Below, in pieces: positions 7,396 through 64,000 of a DNA stretch of 64,000 nt. Where the stretch lies: assembly GCF_009914755.1 (NCBI RefSeq), contig NC_060941.1. One strand, given 5' to 3'. The position numbers and the translations under genes are program-made. A model generated the notes under the pieces. The model was not told where the DNA came from. It saw only the letters and a list, made by a program, of their open reading frames with translations, and did no database searches. How positions within the stretch are numbered: position 1 is the stretch's first letter; each line of letters starts with the position of its first letter. This stretch comes from the human T2T-CHM13v2.0 reference genome, Homo sapiens.

Positions 7396-7618
7396 CCATT
7401 TAATTTTTTTTTTTAATTATACTTTAAGTTCTAGGGTACAAGTGCACAACATGCAGTTTTGATACATAGGTATACATGTGCCATGTTGGTTTGCTGCACC
7501 CATCAACTCATCATTTACATTAGTATTTCTCCTAATGCTATCCCTCCCCCAGGCCCCCACCCCCCGACAGGCCCTGGTGTGTGATGTTCCCCGCCCTGTG
7601 TCCAAGTGATCTCATTGT

Positions 7619-12518
<4,900 letters not shown>

Positions 12519-12581
12519 TATGATGTTAGCTGGTTATTTTGCCCATTAATTGATGCAGTTTCTTCATAGCATCGATGGTCC

Positions 12582-13919
12582 TTACAATTTGGCCTGTTTT
12601 TGCAGGGACTGGTACCGCTTGTTCCTTTTCATGTTTAGTGCTTCCTTCAGGAGCTCTTGTAAGGGAGGTCTGGTGGTGACAAAATCTCTCAGCATTTGCT
12701 TGTTTGTAAAGGATTTTATTTCTCCTTCACTCATGAAGCTTAGTTTGGCTGGATGTGAAATTCTGGGTTAAAAATTCTTTTCTTTAAGAATGTTGAATAT
12801 TGGCCCCCACTCTCTTCTGGCTTGTAGGGTTTCTACTGAGAGATCCACTGCTAGTCTGATGTGCTTCCCTCTGTGGGTAACTCGACCTTTCTCTCTGGCT
12901 TCCCTTTACACTTTTTCCTTCATTTCAACCTTGGTGAATCTGACAATTATATGTCTTGGGTTTGCTCTTCTCGGGGAGTATCTTTGTGGTGTTCTCTGTA
13001 TTTCCTGAATTTGGATGTTGGCCTGCCTTGCTATATTGGGGAAGTTCTCCTGGATAATATCCTGAAGAGTGTTTTCCAACTTGGTTCCATTCTCCCCATC
13101 ACTTTCAGGTGCACCAATCAAACGTAGATTTGGTCTTTTCACATAGTCCCATATTTCTTTTTTTTTTTTTTTTGAGATGGAGTCTCGCTCTTTCACCCAG
13201 GCTGGAGTGCAGTGACGCTATCTCGGCTCACTGCAAGCTCCACTTCCTGGGTTCATGCCATTCTCCTGCCTCCGCCTCTTGAGTAGCTGAGAATACAGGC
13301 ACCTGCCACTGCGCCCAGCTAATTTTTTATATTTTTAGTAGAGACGGGGTTTCACCGTGTTAGCCAGGATGGTCTCGATCTCCTGACCTTGTGATCCACC
13401 AATCTTGGCCTCCCAAAGTGCTGGGATTACAGGCGTGAGCCACTGTGCCCGGCCATAGTCCCATATTTCTTGGAGGTTTGTTCATTTTTTTTTCACTCTT
13501 TTTTCTCTGTCCTTGGTTTCTTGCTTTATTTCATTAATTTGATCTTCAATCACAGATACCCTTTCTTCCACTTGATCGAATTGGCTATTGAAGCTTGTGC
13601 ATGTGTCATTAAGTTCTTGTGTGAGGGTTTTCAGCTCTATCAGGTCATTTAAAGTCTTCTCCACACTGTTTATTCTAGTTAGCCCTTTGTCTAATCTTTT
13701 TTCAAGGTTTCTAGCTTCCTTGTGATGGGTTCGAACATCCTCCTTTAGTTCAGAGAAGTTTGTTATTACCGACCTTCTGATGCCTACTTCTGTCAACTTG
13801 TCAAAGTCATTCTCCATCCAGCTTTGTTCCGTTGCTGGTCAGGATCTGCGATCCTTTGGAAGAGAAGAGGTGTTCTGATTTTTAGAATTTTCAGATTTTC
13901 TGTTCTGGTTTCTTCCCAT
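12582..13919 (-). pseudogene. L1 ORF1, disrupted by AluY
   Basis: MENDFDKLTEVG... and [15 protein letters not shown]... peptides; ATG complement at 13917-13919, stop complement at 12582-12584. Confidence 0.9.
13160..13454 (-). mobile_element. AluY inserted in L1 ORF1
   Basis: AluY diagnostics (caagctcc, gttagccaggatggtctcgatc); perfect 17-bp TSD atagtcccatatttctt at 13143-13159 and 13455-13471. Confidence 0.97.
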
Positions 13920-20028: not shown

Positions 20029-20329
20029 TTTTTTTTCAGAGATAGGCTGCTGCTCTGTTGCTCTGGCAGGAGTGCAGTGATGCAGTCATAGCTCACTGAA
20101 GCAGTGAAGTTCTGGGATCAAGTGATCCTCTGCCTCAGCCTCTCAAATACCTGGGATTATGGGCACATGCCACCATGCCTGGCTAATTTTTTTTTAATCT
20201 TAATTTTTTTGTGGAGACAGGTTCTTGCTATGTTGCCCAGGCTGATCTCAGACTCCTGCTCTCAAACAATCCTCTCGCCTCAGCCTCCTAAAGTGCTGGG
20301 ATTATAGGCATAAGCCATGATACCCAGCC
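20029..20329 (-). mobile_element. AluJ
   Basis: Diverged antisense Alu dimer (gtcatagctcactgaagc; ttgctatgttgcccaggctg). Confidence 0.9.
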
Positions 20330-20344
20330 ACTTTTCTAATACAT

Positions 20345-20865
20345 ATATATATAATATACATAGTATATATTATATATATAATATACATAGTATATATTAT
20401 ATATATAATATACATAGTATATATTATATATATAATATACATAGTATATATTATATATATAATATACATAGTATATATTATATATATAATATACATAGTA
20501 TATATTATATATAATATACATAGTATATATTATATATAATATACATAGTATATATTATATATATAATATACATAGTATATATTATATATAATATACATAG
20601 TATATATTATATATATAATATACATAGTATATATTATATATATAATATACATAGTATATAATATATATAATATACATAGTACATATTTATATATAATATA
20701 CATAGTACATATTATATATATAATATACATAGTACATATTATATATAATATATATAGTATATATTATATATAGTATATATAGTATATATTATATATAATA
20801 TATATAGTATATATTATATAATATTATATATAGTATATATTTATATATATATTATATATATATAT
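20345..20865. repeat. AT-rich minisatellite (VNTR), 25-27 bp unit ATATATAATATACATAGTATATATTAT, about 19-20 copies
   Basis: Direct reading; near-identical units at the left that degenerate to the right; explains the repetitive YNIHSIYYI ORFs. Confidence 0.95.
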
Positions 20866-42740: not shown

Positions 42741-43556
42741 ACCTTGAAAGAAAATTAGACGAATGGCTAACTAGAACAACCAATGCAGAGAAGTCCTTAA
42801 AGGACCTGATGGAGCTGAAAACCAAGGCATGAGAACTACGTGACAAATGCATAAGCCTCAGTAGCCCGATTTGATCAACTGGAAGAAAGGGTATCAGTGA
42901 TGGAAGATCAAATGAATGAAATGAAGCGAGAAGAGAAGTTTAGAAAAAAAAGAATAAAAAGAAATGAACAAAGCCTCCAAGAAATATGGGACTATGTAAA
43001 AAGACCAAATCTACGTCTGATTGGTGTACCTGAAATTGACGGGGAGAAGGGAACCAAGTTGGAAAACACTCTGCAGGATATTATACAGGATAACTTCCCC
43101 AATCTAGCAAGGCAGGCCAACATTCAAATTCAGGAAATACAGAGAACGCCACAAAGATACTCCTCAAGAAGAGCAACTCCAATACACATAATTGTCAGAT
43201 TCACCAAAGTTGAAATGAAGGAAAAAATGTTAAGGGCAGCCAGAGAGAAAGGTCAGGTAACCCACAAAGGGAAGCCCATCAGACTAACAGCTGATCTCTC
43301 GGCAGAAACTCTACAAGCCAGAAGAGAGTGGGGGCCAATATTCAACATTCTTAAAGAAAAGAATTTTCAACCCAGAATTTCATATCCAGCCAAACTAAAC
43401 TTCATAAGTGAAGGAGAAATAAAATACTTTACAGACAAGCAAATGCTGAGAGATTTTGTCACCACCAGGCCTGCCCTAAAAGAGCTCCTGAAGGAAGCAC
43501 TAAACATGGAAAGAAACAACCGGTACCAGCCACTGCAAAAACATGCCAAATTGTAA
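42741..43556 (+). pseudogene. L1 ORF1, C-terminal part
   Basis: 219-aa [21 protein letters not shown]...QPLQKHAKL; N-terminus and promoter missing. Confidence 0.9.
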
Positions 43557-43619
43557 AGACCATTGAGGCTAGGAAGAAACTGCATCAACTAATGAGCAAA
43601 ATAACCAGCTAACATCATA

Positions 43620-47438
<3,819 letters not shown>

Positions 47439-47689
47439 ACAGTGAGAACACATGGACACAGGAAGGGGAACATCACACACCGGGGCCTGCTGTGGGGTGG
47501 GGGAAGAGGGGAGGGATAGCATTTGGAGATATATCTAATGTTAAATGATGAGTTACTGGGTGCAGCACACCAACATGGCACATGTGTACATATATAACTA
47601 AACTGCACGTTGTGCACATGTACCCTAAAACTTAAAGTATAATTTAAAAAAAATTAAAAAAAGAAAGCTACCATTTTAAAATTGACATA

Positions 47690-48735
47690 TGCTGGGGATT
47701 AATAAGAAACTCAAACACCTCCACAGGAAAAATTAAATAAGCCAATTAAAAGTGGGCAAAAGATCTAAATGGACATTACCCAAAAGAAGACATACAAATG
47801 GCAAACAGGCATATGAAAAAATCGTCAACATCACTAATCATCAGAGAAATGCAAATTAAAATTATAATGACATATCATATCGCCCCTGTTAAAATGGCTT
47901 TTGTACAAAGACATGCAATAACAAATCTTGATCAGAATATGGAGAAAGGGGAACATGTGTAGACTGTAGGTGGGAATATAAATTAGTACAGTCACTGTGG
48001 AGAATAGTATTAGAGGTTCCTCAAAAAAACAAAAATAAAACTACCATATAATTTAGCAATCCCACTTCTGGGTATATATTCACAAGAAAGAAATTAGTAA
48101 AGCAAAGAGATATGTGGACTCCCATGTTTACTGTGGCACTATTCACAATAGCCAACATATGAAATCAACCTAAGTGTCCATCAGTGGATGAAAGGATAAA
48201 GAAAAGTCGCGACATAGCAAGACTCTGTCTCAAAAAAAAAGAAAGAGAAAAGTCAAACGTATATACAATGAAATGTTATTTAGCTATAAAAAAGAATGAG
48301 ATCCTGTCATTTGCAATAATATGAACAGAGCTGGAAGACATTGTGTTAGGTGAAATAAGCAACATGCAGAAAGACAAATGTTGCATATTCTCACTCATGT
48401 GGGAGTTAAAAATTTTAAAAATTGGACTCACAGAGATAGAAATTAGAATGATGGTCACCAGAGACTGGGAAGGGTAGCAGGGAGAGCAAGGATAAAGTGG
48501 GAATGGTTAATGGGTACAAAAATACAGTTGGAATAAATATTACCTACTATTTGGTAACACAATAGAGTAACTATAGTTAATAATTTATTGTGTATTTTAA
48601 AGTAACTAAAAGAGTAGAATTTGAATGTTCTTAACACAAAGAAATAATAAATGCTTGAGGTGATGGATACCCCAATTACCCTGATTGGATCATTACACAT
48701 TGTGTGCTTCTATCAAGACATTACATGTACCTAAA
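47690..48735 (+). mobile_element. L1MA-type 3' end
   Basis: gaggtgatggataccccaattaccctgattggatcattacacattgt and related L1MA 3'UTR motifs. Confidence 0.8.
48209..48245 (+). mobile_element. Extremely 5'-truncated Alu (23 nt plus A tail)
   Basis: gcgacatagcaagactctgtctc then A9; TSD agaaaagtc at 48200-48208 and 48246-48254. Confidence 0.8.
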
Positions 48736-51360: not shown

Positions 51361-52643
51361 CGAAGTTATGATTTTCCAACCCCTAAAATATTGTTTGACT
51401 CATAGTAGTTGCTAAATAAATACTTCTTGCATGAATAAAAAATTAATAAGACGAATGTATTGATAACTTTGCATGGTATAGTAAATTGAGAAAATAGTGT
51501 TACAATAGGTGTGCTATTAATTAGTTTGGCCTATAGAATATATTTGCACATTTCAAATATATATATACACATATGTATATATATTTCTTCTGTGTCTTCT
51601 GTGTCTCCTTTGACTGTCTGTATATAATGATATACCCATTACTGTATGTACCTTATAGCTAGCCTAACAACAAAATACATAAATAATATATAAATATTTA
51701 TCTGTATATAAATATATATTACATATACGTACAATAATGAGTATGTTATTATATGCAGAGGGTCAAAATGAGACACAGAAGATGGAAGACCTTAAACACA
51801 ATAGTAAATAAGTAATAGAGCTTAGATGCAAACCTGCATAATTAAACCCAAAAGTAACCATTATACTACTTCACCTCAACATAAATAAGAAATATTGTTA
51901 TCACCACTGGCAATACAAAGGGATAACAACTCCTTTTTGTTTTCCTTAATGTACTAAGTAACAGGACAAAAAAGTTTCCATACATAGCATTCAGTTATAA
52001 AAGTAACTCGTTGCTATTAAGTGCAGCAAAAAGATAAATTGTTCACATACATTTAGCATTAGCTTCATGAATAAGAAGCAGCTTTTATCTAGTATGGACT
52101 ATTGGCTCTGAGATTTTTCCTAGAAAAATATACTGCTTTCTGAAAATACACAATATTATTCTGAATTAACAATACAACCCTTCTACTTAGAAAAGGACTT
52201 TATCTAAGAAGCATGTGATACTAGAAGGAGAAACATACTTAGGATTAATTGTATGAGGCACAGGTTGATTATTGTATTGAAAAATGCAGTGTCTGATTAT
52301 CTCCTCCAGGTGAATTTAAGCTTTGAGGCAAAGTACTATGAAGGAGATACACAATGAATTCAAGGTATTTAGTACAAATAATCTGAGAACACAAGACAGA
52401 TTTCTATTTGTGTTACAATCGTTGATCATATGTTGACTTGCACATTGAAATACTCTATCACATAAGAAATATACAGTAGGCTTAATTAAACCGTAACCAA
52501 TAAAGAAAGAAGATTGATAAAATAATGATAAGTGTTGAAGACATAAAGAGTACATGCAGGTTTATTTTTATCTTCTCTCTAGTATTGCATGTTTGAAATT
52601 TTTCATAATAAGTTTTTAAAAAGAAAAATAAATGTTCTCTTGA

Positions 52644-52991
<348 letters not shown>

Positions 52992-54490
52992 ACATTTTCT
53001 AATTTTAAACTTTTTAGTTAAAAAATAATTTTGTAAAGTGAAAAAATTAAAGAGGAAAAAATAGAAATTAAAATACTTTAGTTGCCAGAAAGGTGATTAA
53101 GAAAATGCTCTTCATACACATGAATATAAAAATTTTTTAAAAGTAGTTGCTGACTTACATCTGGTTATATTTATTTATCAAAAAATTACTATTTAAGGGA
53201 AAATTCATAACATAAAACTTTCTACCTAAACCGTTATAATGTTGAGGCTGAACTTTCCTATGTAGTTCATGCCTGAATTGTCTCAACAATGACTGTTGCT
53301 GCCTTCAATAAAATGGTAGCAAATTTAAAAAATGGTAGTTCTAAAAACTTGTCAATCTGAGCAATTGTTTGTGTTAATTTCTTTGTCCCCCCAAAGCTAA
53401 AATTTATTTTCTTAAATATCCCTGTGATTGCTTGCAACTATTGAGATGAAAAAAGAAACAATTTCTTAGATTGAAAATACAGTAGTCAACCCAGTATTTA
53501 TCTCCAGATTTGCTGATTTCTGCTTGACAGTAACATAATAATGGACCATAGAAAAACTAGTTGTGTTTTTAGAACAGACTCTTTTAAACCATGTGATTTT
53601 TTTTTTTTGTCATCAGTAAACAGAATTAATGTTTGGCTCTGCACATTTTAAAGCTAGTTGAAATAACAATACATTGCAGAAAAAATGGGATTTTGGTAAG
53701 GATTAAATATGATTGCTTATGAAAATAATAAGTATAATGTGTTGAGAATCTAATGTATTCCAAGAATTTTACAGAACTTGTCTCTAATTTTTCCAACAAT
53801 TCTCTAGATGAATATTTGCCATCTGGAGAACTCCAATTGCAAATAAAAAACCAAGTTCAGTAGGTTGCCCCAGGTTATATAGTTAATAATTGCTAGACCT
53901 GAAATGAAATTCTTATCTTTGCCCTTCTGACTCTTTCTATTCTGCAACATTGTCTCTAAGGAAATAATGAGGAAATTATCAAAGTACAAATGCATTATAT
54001 TAGCTATAAATTTCTTTATTAAGGGATTAGGGCAGAGACAAAAAAGCATTCATCAGTGGTAACATGCAGTCTCTAATCTTGGTTCCATCACTTCTCTTTT
54101 CCTCTTAAATGATTCATAACAATGCACACTGCTGAGAGAATCTTTTGCTCCGGGAATAAACAACCAGGAGGTATACAATTCCCAGGCCATTTATTATCCC
54201 TATTTTTGCAACATCTATCGTCAATTAAGTCCTATTAAATGATTACAAAGGTAACTATTTAGTTACAATTTTGTTGAATTTGTTAGCAAACTTCTTTGTG
54301 TCATTTGCTTCTCAAATGAAGAGACTGTAGCAACAGTGAAACCATGTGGCAAACTGGCATTGGGCTGCAGTTCATTAGAATCTGAAAGGCAGGAGAACTC
54401 ATCCACATTTAAAATTCTACATTTGAATTTTCGTTGCTTATGCTGACAATCCTTTAAACACAAAGTCATAAATCAGCAGGCAGTGCTAGG

Positions 54491-54504
54491 GAGCCACCTG
54501 CTGG
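54491..54504 (-). promoter_or_regulatory. Candidate CTCF core motif CCAGCAGGTGGCTC
   Basis: Close match to the CTCF consensus CCASYAGRKGGCRS in non-repetitive sequence; motif only. Confidence 0.4.
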
Positions 54505-56549
54505 AATAACTGGCTGAATTTTGCTGCCATGTTTCCACAAAATATAAATTCACTTAATATTAATTCAATTAGAAAGTTGTCAAATTTAGGGTTCCTTTTG
54601 CCCTAAATAGATATCTTTCACAAAAACTTTCAAACTACACTTGGTAATGGTAAAGAGCATTATTATATATATTTTTAAAAAGGTAGGAAGCATGAAATAA
54701 GAAGAAAAAATATTCAGTGAACATTATTATGTAATTGACATGTGAAAATACAAGAGATAGCCAAGAAATTCCAGTGACATTAGTCAGATTTTCAAAAGAA
54801 AGTTACCTATTGCTTCAAGATTGCTGTATCATTCATTTGTCAAGGATATTCACTGTAACAATTTTACCCAGAAATTATACTTAAATAGTAATTTATGTAA
54901 ATGATAATATTTTGTTAATATTAAAATGAATATGTTTTTAAAACCTGCTTGCATTAAAACCACAGGAGGTCTAATTTGGAATCAAGTGATGCAGATTCTT
55001 TTTCTTTTCCAAGCTGTTTAAAATTAACCTCTGTTACAAACTTTTACCTTTAATATTGAGTGGATGATAAATTAAAGTTTTTAGCTAAAAATTGATTAGT
55101 ATAGTATTTTTCTAGACTATGTTGTTCAGAAGTCTGTGCTAAATATAGCCACCCATTTTCCAGCCTTTGCTATAGAGTATGTATAATGAACATGAAAGAA
55201 ATGTTCTTTGATGATGCTTTTATGTTGCCTACGGTTCATCATTCTAAATATGCTCTCCGTGTGCAGCATAGAAAGTAAGTAAAAAAGATAGGAAAGATTG
55301 ATCTGAAATGTCTACTATCTCCAAGACATAGCCTGGAGTTATTTTTCTTACTGGTTCCCTGTTATCAGTTTGCTTTCTTATCACTTTCTTTATCCTCTAA
55401 AGAGTAGCATGCCTAAAGATTCTATTTAATTAAGAGTTTCAGTTCATGAAAACTATGATTTTATTTATAACTAAGTATTCTCAAGATGGTGGGAACCGTA
55501 GGTAATATGGGTAGGTGGGGAGAGTTCTGTAATTCCTGTTCAGCTGACACTATTTGATAAGTCCTTTACCAACTGCAGTTGCTTTATTTCAGATTCCCTT
55601 TGACTCACCATGGTAGATCCTCACTTAAAGCATTTTAGAATATATCAAGTCATTTACCTTAATCTATGTGACACCTAACAACAACCTTGAAAGATGTGAT
55701 TCTTATCTTTACTCTACAGGTGAGGAATGATTTTCAGAGGAGTTAAGCAAATTGTGCCATGTGGCATCCTAGTAAAAGCCTAAGGAGAGATTCAAGAACT
55801 TGCCAAGACCACGCTGAATCCCACTGAAATATCCAAGTTCTTAAAAAGAGCAAACCACTTTTCTGTGTGTTCATTTTGCACCCTTATCTCTGTGCTTACT
55901 ACATTTTAATCACCCATTTTATTTCTCTCCAAAGTCTGTATGCTCCTTCAAACCATAAACTCCTTTTTAAAAATACTCTCAGCAGTTGGCATCAAACCTG
56001 ATATTCATAAAATATGATAAATTAGTGCTTGTTGAAAGTTTGTTGAAGGAGATTTTATTATTTTTAAATAACATACATGAGATCTTATATTTGTTTATTT
56101 TATGTTTCATGGGAGTGTAGTAGTTTAGAATGAGAAAGGACAAGAAAATGATGTTTATTGAGACCCTACTATATGTCAGGTCCTCTGAGAGTACTTAACG
56201 TGCCAGCTCCTATGAAGGTGCCTTAGTCACCTAAGGTACTAATATTATGTATACATTAGAGACATGACACCATACATACATAGAGGCCATAATATACATA
56301 TGTTAGAGACAAAAAAAAAAAAAAACAGAAAGACAAAGTGGTTAGATAACTTACTCTTAAGTTACCCAAAGCATTCTAAATTATTTCTCAACATTTCTTA
56401 TCTTCTTTGAAAATCTCATCCACTTTCGTAATCTCAACCATCAATCACCTGTATGCAAGTGATGGCCAAATTTGCGTCAATCACTCCTCAATACCTCACA
56501 CTCCCAAATTGCAATTGTAAATATCCTGACTATTCTCAAGAAATAACTA

Positions 56550-57230
56550 TCAAATAACCATTTGAATAAATACCTATACTGGCAGACACTGTACTACTAG
56601 GTGCTGTATATCTACAGTGAACCAAACAATCTCTTTCTGCCTTCAGAGATTCAGGCTAATAGAAGAGTTAAGCAATACATATTGTCATGAAATCCATGAA
56701 CAAGCAATCTTCTATGATAGGACAATCGGAGGAGTCCCTAAAGGGTTAAAAATTAACATAAGATCTGAAAGAAGCCAAGGAATCAATCAAGCAAACAGTG
56801 AGAATGAAAGTGTTCCAAAGGAAGGAAAGAATACATTTGAGGGCAGGGAAGACTGCTGAAGATTTGCAGAACTGAAAGTCTGGTTGTTTGCCTGAACATA
56901 AGTGGAAGCTCCTAAAGGGTTTCAAGTAGGGCATTAAAACCATCCATTTTATGATTTTAAAAAATATTATTCTGACAATTATGTGAGGAAGAGATTAGAA
57001 CAGAACAAGAATGGAAGTGGTAAGAATCATTAGGAGACTAGTCCAGGAGTCCAGGCATGTGATTGAGACTAACTGGTGGAAGCACAGATGGAGAAAGGTA
57101 GAAGAATTAAAAACATATCTTATATTTTGATGTAAGCAAAATTTTGAATGCAAGCAAAATAAATTGATGAGTGGAAAAAAGGAGACATACTAGTCTTCTA
57201 AGTTGAGCAAATGATGAGATGGTGGTTTTC
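56550..57230 (-). mobile_element. L2 LINE fragment
   Basis: atttgaataaatacctatactggcagacactgtactactaggtgctg antisense 3' end followed by body. Confidence 0.6.
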
Positions 57231-57857
57231 TTTGGATCCTTTCTGGGAAAGTTTGTTACAAATATACCTAAGTAATATTAGGTATATTGGTTAACGAGGG
57301 GAGCTTAAGTCCAGGGAAAAGTCAAGAGGAAAGTTGGGACATGATAGATTTAGAGATCTGAGTAAAATTTAAAGCAGACTATACACTATTTCCCAGATGT
57401 CTTAACTTGCTTGTCTAAATGTTTAATATTTCATGGTTTCATTCATTAATTTTACCTAGACTTTGAATTGCATCTCAAGTGCTCATGAAGGAAAAGAATG
57501 GTGTGGTCCATTTGCATAATCTCTTCTTACCGTAAATATTCATAAATTGTGTGTGTGCTTCTCTCTTAGTGCTTACCTTATTCTACTGTTAATCTATAAG
57601 ATCTTTAAAGGTATAAATGTATAAAGAGCCAAGACTTACTCTTCTTGGTATCCACAATAGCAGTAGAGGCCCAGTAAACATTTGTTAAATGTATTATAAC
57701 TAAGTTAAATTTATGTCTCAAAAGAGAAAAAATATTCTAACCCTTTTTTTCTGAATAAGAAACTATGTATTTTGTTTAAAAAAAAGTACAGAGATAAGGT
57801 TCCATGAAGACAAGTGGTACATATTACTTGGAATCTTTCCCAAATGTCTCCAGTGCT

Positions 57858-58043
57858 TTGGCATTATCTCAATTCCCATATCTGCTTTAACAAAGCCAAT
57901 CTCTCTTCGGAAATATCCATCCACTAATAGATTGGTCAGCAAACAATCCAAGCTGTGAGCCAAAGTCAGCCCACTATGAGGCCAACTCTGTTTGCACCCA
58001 TTCTTTATAGCTTTTGCACTACAGTGGCAAAGTTAAGTAGTTG
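57858..58043 (+). repeat. Inverted duplication, donor copy (186 bp)
   Basis: Reverse complement of 61225-61410 with 5 substitutions and no gaps. Confidence 0.97.
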
Positions 58044-58100
58044 CAACAGAGACTGTATAACCTGTAAAGCCAAAAACCTCACTGTCTGGACTTTTATAGT
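57929..58100. mobile_element. MER58A (hAT-Charlie) DNA transposon remnant
   Basis: ggtcagcaaac...cactacagtggcaaagttaagtagttgcaacagagactgtataacctgtaaagccaaaaa...tctggacttttatag. Confidence 0.75.
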
Positions 58101-58311
58101 TCCAGACTCTCACACTAGTTGAATACTTTGAAAATCTTCAGGTTCTTTCTGGGAAGTTTGGTAAGACTATCTCTAAGCAGTATTAGATAATTGGAATCTT
58201 ACCATTTAGCACACTTTCATACAAAAAGTGACAGGTAATGGTTGGGATCAGAACAGAACAACATAAAGAGGGAATGGAATACAGAATAAGAAAACTTGCA
58301 GGGTAGGAGTT

Positions 58312-58843
58312 CCCAGCCATCCCATTACTGGGTATATACCCAAAGGATTATAAAACATGCTGCTATAAAGACACATGCACACGTATGTTTATTGCAGCAC
58401 TATTCACAATAGCAAAGACTTGGAACCAACCCAAATGTCCAACAATGATAGACTGGATTAAGAAAGTGTGGCACATATACACCAAGGAATACTATGCAGC
58501 CATAAAAAATGATGAGTTCATGTCCTTTGTAGGGACATGGCTGAAGCTGGAAACCATCATTCTCAGCAAACTGTCGCAAGGACAAAAAACCAAACGCCGC
58601 ATGTTCTCACTCATAGGTGGGAATTGAACAATGAGAACACATGGACACAGGAAGGGGAACATCACACACCAGGGCCTGTTGTGGGGTGGGGGGAGGGGGG
58701 AGGGATAGCATTAGGAGATATACCTATAAATGACGAGTTAATGGGTACAGCACACCAACATGGCACATGTATACATATGCAACTAACCTGCACGTTGTGC
58801 ACATGTACCCTAAAACTTAAAGTATAATTAAAAAAAAAAAAAA
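58312..58843 (+). mobile_element. 5'-truncated L1PA (PA3-5-like) 3' end
   Basis: ORF2 C-terminus ...FSLIGGN, G-rich 3'UTR, A tail; no TSD found. Confidence 0.93.
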
Positions 58844-61224
58844 CATAACGCTAAGAAGCCTTAAAAAAAAAAAAGAATCAATAACATAATTCAAAACAGA
58901 GTTGCTCAGATCAATACAACCTAGTGGAGTCATTAAATTTGTTTTTGGGTTCCTACTTCCCTACTCCACTGTTTTCTTTGAGGCCATCTCCCCAATTCTT
59001 CCCCCACCCCATTTTAAAGAGCTGTTTTCATGTTCTTAAAGGCTCATTTCAAATGCTATCTGCCTGTGAAGCCCTTTTTAATTTATCCACTCAACAAAAC
59101 TAGGTATGATAACCCATACTTGGATTCCTAGAGCATTTTGTTTGTGGAATTTACTGTGTAATGCTTATTTATTCTTCCAAGTAGATTATAAACTCTTTGA
59201 AGAGAGGTATTGCCCCTAGCATTGAAGTAGTTTAACTGAAATTAATTTATATAAGATATGAATCCACCACAATTGCCTGACAAGAATTTAGAATATGTGT
59301 ATGTTGAGAGACTGAATATACAAATGGACAATGACTGAACCACATATAACAACAGACCCACAACATCTTCAGCAACCAGCCCAGGAATAGCCTTTAACTT
59401 GAAACAGCCTCTGTTTTCATTTTCACTGCAGCCGTCTGTCTTCTACTGAAACCACGTGGCTGGTTTGATTCTGCTATTGAATCTTAGTAGAACTACTAGG
59501 CTTAGGATTGACAGGCACAGGTTTCAAAACAGTGTGCCTTGAAGACCAACTAGGAACTTTAGCAGAGCAAGGGAAGTCAAAATTTACCAGTTGTTGTACC
59601 ACAGCAAGGTACAATCCAAGAATAATGGTTTAAACCTGCCCCTGGGCTCTCCCTCATTTCAGCATACTTACTTCTTTGTCAACACTATGGATTTAGACTT
59701 CCCTTTTGCTCAAGAACACTCATCCTGTCATGCACGGCCTTGCTCAGATTTGTCATATCTGACACTTTGATTTAATGTCTGACTATGGCTCAACTCTGAC
59801 TTTGTTTCATGTCATGAATGAGATTTTAGTGCTGCTCTAAAGTCCTTCTGTTACTAACCGGGACTCAAACCCAGAGATCAGATATGCCTCCCCAGTCTCA
59901 GCATGACCTGTCTTTGTGATCCAGTCTTCACATCCATATTCTGAAGACTGAGACAAGGCAAGGACCAGCAGGCATTGAGTTAACAAAAGCAGAGCAGGCA
60001 TATACACTCCGGATCAAAGAATCAAAGTTGGAGAGAACAGCAAACAGCAGAATTCAAATGGCCAGGAAAATACAGAAGAAGCTGCCCTGTACCCATAAAA
60101 GTAGAATAAGCTGCTGATTCATTTGGGGCCTTTGCTGTCTCAGTTTCACATAATTACATCCTCCTGCATCAATCCAATGGCCCATCAGGGAAAAGGTGTT
60201 GTAACTTACTAAAATAAGAGAATTGTTCAAGGTCCCTGTGAGAAGCTAACTGGATTGTGAAACATAAATCAGGGTTCTATTGTAATAATAGATAAACAAT
60301 CTCAAAATTATTTCAGAAGCAACATGTCACATGGGGAAGCCATCACTACTGTCATGTTTGAGGTGTGTATACCCTATCAATCATTTTAATGACATTTTAC
60401 CTCTGCATGGATAGGTAAAGCATGATTAGCCTGCTGAGTTCAGTAGCAGAACCAGCCTAGGGGAAGGAAAAATGTCAAAAAGTAGAGTTACCTTGATAGA
60501 GTCATCTTAAATAACAGGCCAAGAATGCCAGTATTCTCATTTTCCCACATCTTTATTTATTTGGTTTTAGGCTTTATCAAACAATGTATATGTGGGAGGT
60601 ATGGGTGGTTCAGGAGTACATGGGGTGCTTAACCTCTTTACCCTTGAACAATTGAAAATCATCAACATAATATCAAAATACAGATACAATATGGAGATAT
60701 TTTAAAATAGTATTTACTCTGTTGATATGTAGCTTCTAAATCCAGCCAGAGGCTATCATAATAAACAAGTAACACATTCTATCACCTTTAGGAGCCATAA
60801 GTCTGAAAATATATAGGGAAACCTACAAACAGTAAATAATACAAGTTCATATGCTTCCAGTAGTAGAAAGACTGAATGCCTTAGGAAAATGATAGTGCAA
60901 TGTGTGTGTTGATATATAAGCTAGGTTCCTATAATAATTTATCCAAAGTGAACTCATTGATTGAGAGGACTTCAAGCCATACCAAGGAAATACAGAGTTT
61001 TTAAAAGAACACAATTTTTGATTAAGCCAGTTATACTTGGATTATGCTCAAGATGCAGAATATGCTTTCTTTGGTGGGTAGTATGTGACTTGAACAGTAT
61101 GGGAGATCGTCATTACCACACATCATCCTTTCTGCTGCTCTTGACAAAAGGTTTAAAGTTTTACATTCCCTATTAAGTCATTTGTACCTTCAAGAGGGTT
61201 CTACTAAATATATAGACATATGTA

Positions 61225-61410
61225 CAACTACTTAACTTTGCCACTGTAGTGTAAAAGCTATAAAGAACGGGTGCAAACAGAGTTGGCCTCATAGTTGGCT
61301 GACTTTGGCTCACAGCTTGGATTGTTTGCTGACCCATCTATTAGTGGATGGATATTTCCGAAGAGAGATTGGCTTTGTTAAAGAAGATATGGGAATTGAG
61401 ATAATGCCAA
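61225..61410 (-). repeat. Inverted duplication, inserted copy (186 bp)
   Basis: Reverse complement of 57858-58043; followed by a fold-back junction at 61411-61441. Confidence 0.97.
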
Positions 61411-63369
61411 TTATCTCAATTATCTCAATTGAGATAATGCCTAATTTATAATATCGTTTTGAGGACTGATCCTAAAAAATAAAAGTAGAAATGTAAGAAA
61501 ACAAAACAAAATAAACCAAAAACTTTATGATAAAAATATATTAATTAGATTTTTAAAATAATAATGAAAATTGGAGCAATAAAATGTTGTTTTCAGAAGT
61601 TAGTTTTTAAATTATGTTCACATAATGAACTCTTGTGAATCCATTAAAGTATTTTTGAAGACCATTTAATCACAAGATAAAACCCTTCATATAAACTTAA
61701 ATGGAAAAGGAATATTCAAAAATAATATGCAGGATGATCACAACGTATGAAGTATATATGTTTTATATCCTAGTGTGTGTAGTAAAAGAGCTGAAAGCAA
61801 TGACACATAAATGATTATCTTGCTGCAGAGAGATTATAGATAATATAATTTTCTTCATTATTTTATGGATATTCCAATTTTTATAATAAGCATACATTAC
61901 TTTCATATTTTAAAAGAATAGTAATTACACTTAAATAATACTTAAATGAGAATATATATATATATTCTTTCACCCCAGGAAGGGATTATGCCTCTAGCTG
62001 TTATTAATTAACACTTTAGAAACTAGCTAAGCATAGGGACAGGAGGATGGCATAAAGAAAGTGAAGTGAATGTATGGAGGATTCAATTCAATTAAAAAAA
62101 TAGTCCGTCACAAGTTTATAATGTTTTGCCTTTTATAAAGTGCTTTCACATACTTTATTCCATGAAGACTGTCTCAACTTTCTAGTGCACACACACATCC
62201 ACACAGGCAGACACAAAAGATATTATTAGTCATTTTAAGTGCCTAGAAGGACACATCTACCCTATTGCCCCCAAACTGAGCTGTTATAACCAGGTAAATA
62301 GCTTTCAGTGAAAAGTAACATCCATAAAAGACAATCAATGGTGGCATATTATTCTTGTTCACTCTGCTGTCTTTGGTTGCTACATGTCTCCTTGGCTCTC
62401 TATTAGAGACCAAGCTTGCCCGCTTGGAATGCCAAGCAGTATCCACATGGCTGAAGGTAACACCTTCCTTGCCTTGCTTTCAAAGTCCCACCCATAGCTG
62501 AATACATCTCCCTTATCTTGCTTTCCCTTTAATGAAAGAGCAACGTTATTACATGCTTGGATTCACCAGTGAAGGACCTGGTCCATGTTGAATGAGTGTT
62601 TTCCATGCCTACACATAAACAGGTCAGAAAAGTCTAGATCTGGATGTATAGCTTACTATATCATCACACTAGCAAAGCACCAGCTTCTGATTTCCTTTTC
62701 TTGGCTACATGCTGGAGGCCTGGTCCTGGGCCAACGACAGCTGTGCATCAATTATCACAAAGAGAGCAAGACCTTGGGGAAAGCCTGATGATTTAACGAG
62801 TGCTCAGCTGGGACTTTTTCACTTGATGTGTATCTTAGTACTGCATAGCAACTCCCTTTTAGTTCAAAACAATACATCTCCTTTAGTTTATCGGGTGATT
62901 GGCGTAATTATGAAGAAGAACAAAGATCAAATACTGTGTCCAGAAGCAGAGGGACTAGACCACATGGTAAGGCAGCAGCTAGGGAGAATGATGGAAAAGT
63001 ATCCCCTGCTTCTGAATAGCAATCCTTCTAAAAAACACCAATGAATAAATAAAAATCAGGATAGGTGACATACCTTGTTTTAAAGAGTAAGGAATCACCG
63101 TCGAGAGTGGTAAAATAACTTGCCCTAATCTACACACTTGAAGAGATATAACTACTACTTAAATAGTTTGATACTGAGTTCTAAGCTTATTTAAGTCACC
63201 TCCGTTCAGCAAAACTGTTGTATATCATCTATTAAACGTCCACTGTGAACAAGACTCTGTGTGTGTGCACATGCATGTGTGTGGGGGAGAGTAGATGCAC
63301 AGTAATAAAAAAAAGAGCTCTTTTTTTTGTGTCTTATAATGATATACATAAAACGTAATAAACATTACT

Positions 63370-63730
63370 TACTCTGGTTTGAATGTGTCCACGCACAATT
63401 CATATATTGAAATCAAATCACCAGTATGTTCCTATCAGGAGGTGGGACTGTTGGGAGATAATTAGGTCATGAGGGCAGAGCACTCATACATGGGAATAGT
63501 GCCCTTATAAAAGAGGCCGCAGAAATCTGCCTTGCCCCTTCCATCATGTGAGGATTCAGAGAGAAGTTGCCATCTGTGTACCAGGAAACAGGCTCTCACC
63601 AGATATCACATGTGCCAGCAGTTTGATCTTAAACTTCCCAGCCTCCAGAACTGTGAGAAATAAATTATTGTTGTTGATGAGCCCCATAATTAATGGTTTT
63701 TTGTTATAGCAGCCCAAGGACACTAAGACA
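63370..63730 (+). mobile_element. MLT1A (ERVL-MaLR) solo LTR
   Basis: ggtttgaatgtgtcc start; acttcccagcctccagaactgtgagaaataaatt; ends ttgttatagcagccc...ctaagaca. Confidence 0.88.
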
Positions 63731-64000
63731 TTGTATAAGTAAGACAAAATAAAATATGCAAACATATTTTATCATTGTAATGCATGGCAAAAATCTGAAC
63801 TATAATCAAATATACAATATACCGTAAGAAATTGGCCTACTCTACAAATGAAACTTAGAAATGTTTTCCCTGGACAGTTTAAATTTGTGGATTACCACTT
63901 CAAACTCACTCTTGCCATTATCCCCAGTGCACCCGTCCCACTATCATTTGGTACTGTCTTGAGGAGACCTTGAATCTGAGTCCTTCATAGCTGCTGCCTG

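What the first reader, a model, noticed from the sequence alone, without database searches (positions are those of the whole stretch)
57858..61410. Young 186-bp inverted duplication bracketing 3.2 kb
Seen: 57858-58043 and 61225-61410 are reverse complements with 5 substitutions (~97% identity) and no gaps. The unit spans ~70 bp of unique flank plus part of MER58A, so it is not two transposon insertions. MER58A continues only after the left copy, and both novel junctions flank the right copy, so the left copy is the donor. There is no poly(A) or TSD, arguing against retroposition. Inference: a DNA-level template-switch duplication, recent on the primate scale. It could mediate inversion or gene conversion of the 3.2-kb interval (58044-61224), mimic an inversion in paired-end data and, if transcribed, form a 186-bp near-perfect non-Alu dsRNA stem (ADAR substrate, splicing or back-splicing loop).
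Basis: partly seen in the sequence, partly recalled or inferred. Interest (0 to 1): 0.8.

Follow-up and report, generated by a model that had tools for sequence, protein, structure and literature searches.

The report
Small inverted copy-paste duplication, gene desert
A 186-base stretch of human chromosome 17 was copied backwards into a site 3.2 kb away by a DNA copying slip millions of years ago; it is real and its junction is informative, but it is an ordinary kind of mutation scar lying far from any gene.

Summary
Bases 57858-58043 and 61225-61410 are ungapped reverse complements with 5 mismatches in 186. The CHM13 genome search found only these two copies.

The arm is not a transposon insertion. 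A profile of 29 dispersed copies of the transposon family recognises only its last 34 bases. All 29 copies align across the left arm's inner edge, and the right arm stops there.

It is built entirely from forward and reverse re-copies of the arm's first 17 bases, joined through 1-4 base overlaps. None of the other three edges has such filler.

My reading is that the right copy is a roughly 217-base templated insertion made by microhomology-primed polymerase template switching (confidence about 0.7). The main rival is a 3.2-kb inversion formed by staggered breaks (about 0.1). Only an outgroup genome can separate the two.

Divergence of 2.7% suggests about 9-27 million years, with wide error, so "young" is relative.

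No gene lies within 100 kb and there is no Rfam hit. The suggested dsRNA and inversion roles are untested and unlikely to matter. This is a new example of a known kind and of low interest.

The parts
57858..58043 (+). Left arm, the inferred donor copy of the 186-bp unit
   Evidence: Its inner edge lies inside a transposon relic that continues uninterrupted to about 58112. All 29 of 29 family copies align across 58043/58044, and the family profile hits 58010-58135 at E = 5e-29.
61225..61410 (-). Right arm, the inferred inserted copy (reverse complement of the left arm, 5 mismatches)
   Evidence: The family profile matches only 61258-61224 and stops at the arm's inner edge, so the transposon is truncated here.
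61411..61441 (-). 31-nt junction filler made of re-copies of the arm's first 17 bases. Read on the minus strand it is a forward 15-mer (arm positions 3-17), then the reverse-complement 12-mer of arm positions 6-17 twice, with overlaps of 4, 3 and 1-2 nt.
   Evidence: k-mer mapping and palindrome scan: a 20-bp perfect palindrome and a 12-nt stem with a 5-nt loop; 31 of the 40 bases outside this edge are covered by 10-mers reused from the arm start. The other three edges show only isolated, scattered 10-mers.
58010..58112 (+). 3' half of an old non-autonomous DNA transposon relic.
   Evidence: An nhmmer profile built from 29 dispersed copies gives E = 5e-29. One search found 38 other genomic matches among the 40 candidates scored, out of 210.
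57930..58009 (+). Possible, much-decayed 5' half of the same transposon
   Evidence: Not recognised by the profile or by blastn against family copies. The only support is a terminal-repeat-like motif read by eye and TSD-like octamers sharing CACTA at 57922-57929 and 58113-58120.
58044..61224 (.). 3181-bp interval between the arms, 38% GC, holding an L1 fragment at about 58312-58886
   Evidence: direct-repeat families D3, D8, D10 and D14 link 58312-58843 to L1 pieces at 35.8-36.5 kb and 46.9-47.7 kb. Transposon continuity at 58043/58044 means that in this assembly the interval is in the orientation it had when the transposon inserted.
61442..61471 (+). Outer flank of the inferred insertion site, with 61195-61224 as its partner
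   Evidence: Both 300-bp flanks are single copy in the genome search. Both 30-nt flanks are 73% A+T. They share only TA at the junction.

Best explanation
The right-hand copy, about 217 bp (a 186-bp arm plus 31-bp filler, 61225-61441), is a templated insertion. At a broken or stalled DNA end at the site now split as 61224|61442, a 3' end primed on the 57858-58043 segment 3.2 kb away, on the opposite strand. It copied 186 nt and was then rejoined to the original site. The filler records several abortive, microhomology-primed starts or snap-backs confined to the terminal 17 nt of the copied segment. This is the signature of iterative polymerase template switching (FoSTeS/MMBIR-type replication repair, or synthesis at one break end with end-joining capture at the other). 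Shown: two copies only; the transposon is truncated at the right inner edge; the filler is composed of arm-start pieces with 1-4 nt overlaps. Inferred: that the filler is junctional rather than ancestral, the polymerase mechanism, the direction of synthesis (both polarities fit) and the age. The structure most likely has no function. It is a neutral scar, probably fixed long ago, that leaves a weak substrate for inversion or gene conversion and an ambiguity for short-read mapping.
For: (1) The genome-wide search finds the arm, and its 81-bp outer part, only at these two places. (2) All 29 of 29 fetched family copies align across 58043/58044. The family profile covers 58010-58135 on the left but only 61258-61224 on the right. 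So the left inner junction is ancestral and the right inner junction is novel. (3) The 31 nt outside the right arm are fully accounted for by forward and reverse re-copies of arm positions 3-17, with overlaps of AATT, AAT and T/TT. None of the other three edges shows this. Filler of this kind is expected at a newly made junction. (4) There is no poly(A) and no TSD longer than 2 bp. (5) The flanks on both sides of the inferred insertion site are single copy and equally AT-rich, 73% each. (6) Literature, passages read. MMBIR-type templated insertions are defined as inverted copies of nearby templates flanked by microhomology, sometimes with several templates (PMC8421209). [quoted passage not shown] The four-point template-switch model generates inverted repeats in great-ape genomes (PMC7954356).
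Against: No outgroup or second human haplotype could be examined, so the empty site has not been seen. The inner junction (61224/61225) shows 0-1 nt of microhomology, which fits end joining better than a microhomology-primed return switch. The template lies 3.2 kb from the insertion, whereas the tool that defines MMB-TIs searches templates within 100 bp (PMC8421209) and short-range template switches are described over tens to hundreds of nucleotides (PMC7954356). The filler could in principle be an older or later small local event that happens to abut the arm. The genome search skips very common words and scores only the best candidates, so 'only two copies' is a strong statement but not an absolute one.
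Confidence: 0.7

Rival explanations
1. This is an inversion made by staggered single-strand breaks. The ancestral order was A - (interval inverted) - single copy - filler - C. A staggered break 186 nt wide around the single copy, plus a second break at 57857/57858, inverted the 3.2-kb interval and left the 186 bp duplicated in inverted orientation at both ends.
For: Single-copy DNA duplicated in inverted orientation on both sides of a segment is the recognised hallmark of this mechanism in Drosophila (PMC3355041, abstract and passages). Transposon continuity across the left inner junction and truncation at the right inner junction fit this model equally well. No repeat crosses 57857/57858 that would prove that junction ancestral.
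Against: The model puts the 31-nt filler at an ancestral junction. A separate small rearrangement, built only from the arm's first 17 nt, would then have to lie exactly where the later nick fell. The junction this model treats as novel (57857/57858) has no filler. It needs two events where the templated-insertion model needs one.
Confidence: 0.1
2. A free DNA fragment was captured. A fragment of about 186 nt, excised or displaced from the 57858-58043 region (for example a flap or an over-replicated piece), was ligated in inverted orientation into a double-strand break by end joining. The filler was added by an end-joining polymerase.
For: The inner junction has 0-1 nt of microhomology. Capture of extrachromosomal fragments at breaks by NHEJ is one of the proposed routes to templated insertions (PMC11724301, Introduction passage). 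The filler templates all lie within 17 nt of one fragment end, as expected for snap-back synthesis on an end.
Against: The sequence outcome cannot be told apart from template switching. The donor locus is intact, so the piece must have been a copy rather than an excision. The closeness of donor and target (3.2 kb) is more naturally explained by a local switch.
Confidence: 0.1
3. A larger inverted segmental duplication was later trimmed by deletions down to 186 bp.
For: None specific. It cannot be excluded without outgroups.
Against: There is no residual homology beyond either arm end. The edges are sharp and one edge carries templated filler. Several extra events would be needed.
Confidence: 0.04
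4. An RNA-templated (retroposed or RT-mediated) copy of a local transcript was inserted at a break.
For: The insertion is short and its donor is nearby. Nothing else supports it.
Against: There is no poly(A), no TSD longer than 2 bp and no adjoining L1 sequence (the flanks are single copy). According to the annotation supplied, no transcript is annotated within 100 kb.
Confidence: 0.03
5. It is an assembly artefact or an unrecognised dispersed repeat family.
For: The genome search used here skips very common words and scores only the best candidates (notes).
Against: Five substitutions distinguish the copies, and each copy has its own unique flanks. Only two copies of the arm and of its outer part were found. 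The annotation supplied places the window in the T2T-CHM13v2.0 assembly.
Confidence: 0.02

Closest known systems
MMBIR/FoSTeS templated insertions (MMB-TI; PMC8421209, passages read)
   Same: The insertion is an inverted copy of a nearby template. There are short microhomologies at the switch points and several successive switches. No transposon machinery is involved.
   Different: The template is 3.2 kb away rather than within 100 bp. The main copied tract is 186 nt. The event is old and probably fixed, not somatic or de novo. One junction lacks microhomology.
Short-range template-switch mutations of great-ape genomes (four-point model; PMC7954356, passages read)
   Same: A transient switch to the opposite strand creates a new inverted repeat. 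The leave, start, end and return points can be assigned here: about 61442, 57858-57860, 58043 and 61224.
   Different: Those events act over tens to hundreds of nucleotides and usually replace sequence. Here the jump is about 3.4 kb and the result is a net insertion.
Inverted duplications flanking inversions made by staggered breaks (Drosophila; PMC3355041)
   Same: Originally single-copy DNA is present in inverted orientation on both sides of a segment.
   Different: Templated filler sits at the junction that this model requires to be ancestral. The ancestral orientation of the interval is unknown.
Inverted repeats at breakpoints of human polymorphic inversions (PMC13629690; PMC6748972)
   Same: A pair of inverted repeats brackets a few kb. 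Validated human inversions have breakpoint repeats from 140 bp to 134 kb.
   Different: No inversion is known here. In one well-studied set the NAHR-generated inversions had repeats of 654 bp to 24.2 kb. These arms are 186 bp with a longest perfect run of 48 bp.
Dispersed and inverted duplication classes in structural-variant catalogues (PMC12583596, passages read)
   Same: A copy of a segment is inserted elsewhere on the same chromosome. The class is recognised as simple 'templated insertion' or 'dispersed duplication'.
   Different: Catalogue events are de novo and mostly far larger. This one is a small, old event.

Membership tests
Templated insertion by microhomology-mediated template switching (FoSTeS/MMBIR type) | The inserted sequence is a copy of a template elsewhere, usually nearby | tested here: met
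   181 of 186 bases are identical to 57858-58043, 3181 bp away.
Templated insertion by microhomology-mediated template switching (FoSTeS/MMBIR type) | Microhomology at the switch junctions | tested here: inconclusive
   Overlaps of 4, 3 and 1-2 nt occur between the filler pieces and the arm. The inner junction 61224/61225 has only 0-1 nt, and the flank/filler junction matches only imperfectly (TT then a mismatch).
Templated insertion by microhomology-mediated template switching (FoSTeS/MMBIR type) | Several successive switches, giving a complex junction | tested here: met
   The 31-nt filler has three pieces in both orientations, all templated by arm positions 3-17.
Templated insertion by microhomology-mediated template switching (FoSTeS/MMBIR type) | The ancestral allele lacks the insertion (empty site) | not testable with these tools
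   No primate or second human genome is available. The flanks are single copy, so there is no paralogous empty-site proxy.
Dispersed repeat / transposon copy | Many genomic copies share the whole unit, including the outer 72 bp | tested here: not met
   Only two copies of the arm and of 57850-57930 (2 of 2 candidates) were found. Family copies match only from about 57996/58010 onward.
L1-mediated retrocopy | A poly(A) tail and a target-site duplication | tested here: not met
   There is no A or T run at either end, and only TA is shared by the flanks.
Inversion by staggered breaks with breakpoint duplication | Inverted duplicates of single-copy DNA flank the inverted segment | tested here: met
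Inversion by staggered breaks with breakpoint duplication | Each duplicate keeps one ancestral flank. Here that means right outer and left inner are ancestral, while left outer and right inner are novel. | tested here: inconclusive
   Left inner ancestral and right inner novel are shown. The right outer junction carries templated filler, which argues that it is novel, but there is no outgroup to decide.
Inversion by staggered breaks with breakpoint duplication | The interval is inverted relative to the ancestor | not testable with these tools
   No outgroup genome is available.
Inverted-repeat (NAHR) inversion locus | Both orientations of the interval are observed in populations or species | not testable with these tools
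   Only one assembly is available. The main catalogue paper (PMC9563103) is not held, and the supplements of PMC13629690 were not opened (the tool text says papers added after Aug 2026 have none).

The most novel reading that the evidence does not exclude
The 186-bp arms act as a minimal recombination switch. The 3.2-kb interval flips recurrently by non-allelic recombination in humans or apes, and the five arm differences are shuffled by gene conversion. That would make this one of the shortest inverted-repeat-driven recurrent inversions, with an origin that can be traced at the sequence level. A second speculative reading is that the 186-nt tract length reflects synthesis across a single lagging-strand (Okazaki-sized) gap after a leading-strand switch.
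Probability: 0.05. Interest if true: 0.4.

Novelty: new member of a known kind. Interest (0 to 1): 0.2.

Why it matters
This is a clean natural example of how a replication or repair slip creates a new inverted repeat out of mostly unique DNA. Its junction still records the abortive restarts. Such scars are raw material for later inversions and for hairpin-forming RNAs. They can also mislead short-read structural-variant callers. Here, however, the site lies in a gene desert, the arms are short, and the mechanism class is well described. Its value is as a worked case, not as a discovery.

Tried and rejected

2. Empty-site proxy. I searched the genome with the 300 bp on each side of the inferred insertion site, hoping the site lay inside a repeat whose other copies would show the uninterrupted sequence. 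Both flanks are single copy.

3. Repeat crossing 57857/57858. The aim was to prove the left outer junction ancestral and so exclude the staggered-break inversion. None was found. The search cannot see very old repeats.

4. Confirming that 57930-58009 is transposon.

5. Polarising the five differences with family copies. Only 58016 lies in reliably aligned columns: the family has G in 21 of 28 copies and A in 6, so the right copy's A is derived. The counts at 57933, 57972 and 58000 come from poorly aligned columns and I do not use them.

6. Rfam scan of 52000-64000: no family at gathering score.

7. Inversion catalogues. Porubsky et al. 2022 (PMC9563103) is not held. For PMC13629690 the text passages have no chr17 mention. 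I did not ask for its supplements, because the tool text says papers added after Aug 2026 have none held. So I cannot say whether this interval is listed anywhere.

8. Literature search for 'MER58A' with 'inverted duplication': 0 papers.

9. Transposase-mediated origin. Rejected by reasoning: the unit's outer edge is in unique DNA and its inner edge is inside the element, so neither edge is a transposon end.
Full report
**Observation**

The inverted pair is real. The repeat finder finds a single inverted pair in 56500-63000. Its arms are 57858-58043 and 61225-61410, 186 nt each, 97% complementary and 3181 nt apart.

Alignment of the left region with the reverse complement of the right region shows an ungapped block. 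Unrelated sequence begins immediately outside both ends.

The five mismatches (left/right base) are 57884 G/T, 57933 T/G, 57972 C/A, 58000 A/G and 58016 G/A. They break the arm into perfect runs of 26, 48, 38, 27, 15 and 27 nt. The blastn E-value within the window is 1.2e-87.

The longest exact inverted match in the 6.5-kb region is 48 nt, against at most 18 in 50 mononucleotide shuffles. Of the 85 inverted pairs in the whole window, the 25 longest are listed. Among those, this pair has the highest complementarity (97%). The others are L1- and Alu-type pairs at 75-94%.

**Copy number and relation to the transposon**

The window's own assembly can be searched. The 186-bp arm hits only itself, its partner, and one 34-bp family match on another chromosome. 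The outer 81 bp (57850-57930) hit only the two copies (2 of 2 candidates). The refuting condition 'many dispersed copies include the same flank' is therefore not met. One limit applies: this search skips very common words and scores only the best candidates.

A query covering 57925-58125 returned 210 candidates, of which 40 were scored. Two were the local copies and 38 were dispersed family members. These members match query positions from 72-94 to 135-179 (mostly 86 to 152-175), which corresponds to window coordinates of about 57996-58018 to 58059-58103.

I fetched 28 of those 38 members; the other 10 were given no locus and were not examined. Adding the chromosome-14 copy made 29. All 29 of 29 align across the 58043/58044 boundary.

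A profile HMM built from the 29 copies matches the left region at 58010-58135 (E = 5e-29), running through the family's 3' terminus at about 58112. On the right it matches only 61258-61224 (E = 7e-9) and stops exactly at the arm's inner edge. So the left inner junction lies inside an uninterrupted element and is ancestral. The right inner junction cuts the element and is novel.

The same profile finds nothing in 57880-58015, and blastn against the family copies gives only chance-level hits there.

A decayed 5' half starting near 57930 remains plausible. Two weak signs point that way: a terminal-repeat-like motif, and octamers sharing CACTA at 57922-57929 and 58113-58120. Either way, most of the arm is sequence found nowhere else in the genome search.

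Read on the minus strand, the 31 nt between the outer flank and the right arm (61441 down to 61411) are built only from the arm's own first 17 bases:
- a forward 15-mer, GGCATTATCTCAATT (arm positions 3-17);
- the reverse-complement 12-mer AATTGAGATAAT (arm positions 6-17), overlapping the 15-mer by AATT;
- the same 12-mer again, overlapping by AAT;
- the full arm, overlapping by 1-2 nt.

This creates a 20-bp perfect palindrome and a second 12-nt stem.

I tested the 40 nt outside each of the four arm edges for 10-mers reused within 55-64 kb. The results were:
- right outer edge: 31 of 40 bases are covered by 26 reused 10-mers, all from the arm start;
- left inner edge: none;
- left outer edge and right inner edge: two isolated 10-mers each, scattered to unrelated places.

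Templated, bidirectional filler with 1-4 nt overlaps is what iterative polymerase switching or snap-back synthesis leaves at a newly formed junction.

**Which copy is the insertion**

Transposon continuity fixes only the two inner junctions.

Two histories fit those. In the first, A-D-B-C became A-D-B-D'-C by insertion of an inverted copy, so the novel junctions are right inner and right outer. In the second, A-(B inverted)-D'-C became A-D-B-D'-C by an inversion with a staggered break around D', so the novel junctions are left outer and right inner.

The filler discriminates between them. Under insertion it sits at a novel junction, as expected. Under the inversion model it would be ancestral sequence, and an independent small rearrangement made only of the arm's first 17 nt would have to end exactly where the later nick fell.

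I found no repeat spanning 57857/57858 or spanning the insertion site that could settle the matter independently. I put the inversion model at about 0.1 and the templated insertion at about 0.7.

**Mechanism**

A 3' end at the site now split as 61224|61442 used the 57858-58043 segment on the opposite strand as template for 186 nt and was then rejoined. Both polarities fit the sequence.

If synthesis ran from the outer edge inward, the filler records abortive starts at the same template position before a processive run. The inner junction, with 0-1 nt of microhomology, is then the capture or return step.

If synthesis ran from the inner edge outward, the filler records snap-back synthesis on the freshly made end before joining to the other side.

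Either polarity corresponds to described processes:
- MMBIR-type templated insertions, which are inverted copies of nearby templates with microhomology, sometimes multi-template (PMC8421209);
- the hybrid model in which one break end primes synthesis at microhomology and the other captures the product by end joining (PMC11724301, abstract and passages);
- the four-point template-switch model that generates inverted repeats in ape genomes (PMC7954356).

This case differs in scale. The jump is 3.2-3.4 kb rather than 100 bp or less, or tens to hundreds of nt. It also differs in being a net insertion.

Retroposition is rejected: there is no poly(A), no TSD beyond TA and no adjoining L1. A transposase-mediated origin is rejected because neither edge of the unit is an element end.

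**Age**

Five differences in 186 sites give K = 0.027. That corresponds to 13.7 My at 1e-9 per site per year, or 9-27 My for rates of 1.5 to 0.5e-9. The Poisson interval of 1.6-11.7 differences widens this to roughly 3-65 My.

From general knowledge of primate divergences, which I did not test here, 2.7% lies between the human-chimpanzee and human-macaque levels. The event is therefore probably shared by the great apes and fixed. Gene conversion between the arms would make it look younger than it is.

Only the difference at 58016 can be polarised: the family has G in 21 of 28 copies, so the right copy's A is derived.

**Consequences**

In this assembly the interval has the orientation it had when the transposon inserted, because the element is continuous across 58043/58044.

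Inversion by recombination between the arms is conceivable, since validated human inversions have breakpoint repeats from 140 bp to 134 kb (PMC13629690). It is unlikely to be frequent. In a well-studied set the NAHR inversions had repeats of 654 bp to 24.2 kb (PMC6748972), and the longest perfect run here is 48 bp.

If one transcript carried both arms, they would pair strongly: -337 kcal/mol with 181 pairs in a two-strand calculation. However, the annotation supplied lists no gene within 100 kb, and Rfam finds nothing in 52000-64000.

I could not consult inversion catalogues for this site.

**Verdict**

This is a new instance of a well-known class of mutation in a gene desert. The open question, insertion versus staggered-break inversion, can be settled by a simple comparison with other primate assemblies, which these tools do not offer.

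Noticed in passing
window 20285-20750: A minisatellite with a 9-bp period: 42 registered copies of a 156-nt frame at 9-nt spacing. Its two halves (20356-20519 and 20523-20686) are also 77% reverse-complementary to each other, so the array has a palindromic organisation.
   Followed up: no
window 7500-13200 versus 43000-47900: Two L1-type blocks in inverted orientation, collinear over about 4.6 kb in pieces of 164-854 nt at 88-94% complementarity, lying 30-39 kb apart (pairs I1-I6, I8, I10, I11, I14, I19). As a substrate for inversion this pair is far larger than the 186-bp pair under study. They are probably two independent insertions of similar subfamily.
   Followed up: no
window 58312-58886: The L1 fragment inside the interval is 90-97% identical to L1 pieces at 35.8-36.5 kb and 46.9-47.7 kb (families D3, D8, D10, D14). 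If it inserted after the duplication, donor and target were originally about 0.6 kb closer.
   Followed up: no
window 57922-57929 and 58113-58120: The octamers CACTAATA and CACTAGTT flank the presumed ends of the transposon relic. They may be a decayed 8-bp target-site duplication.
   Followed up: partly
window 57124-57160: A small tandem duplication of an 18-bp unit, 2.1 copies at 90% match.
   Followed up: no
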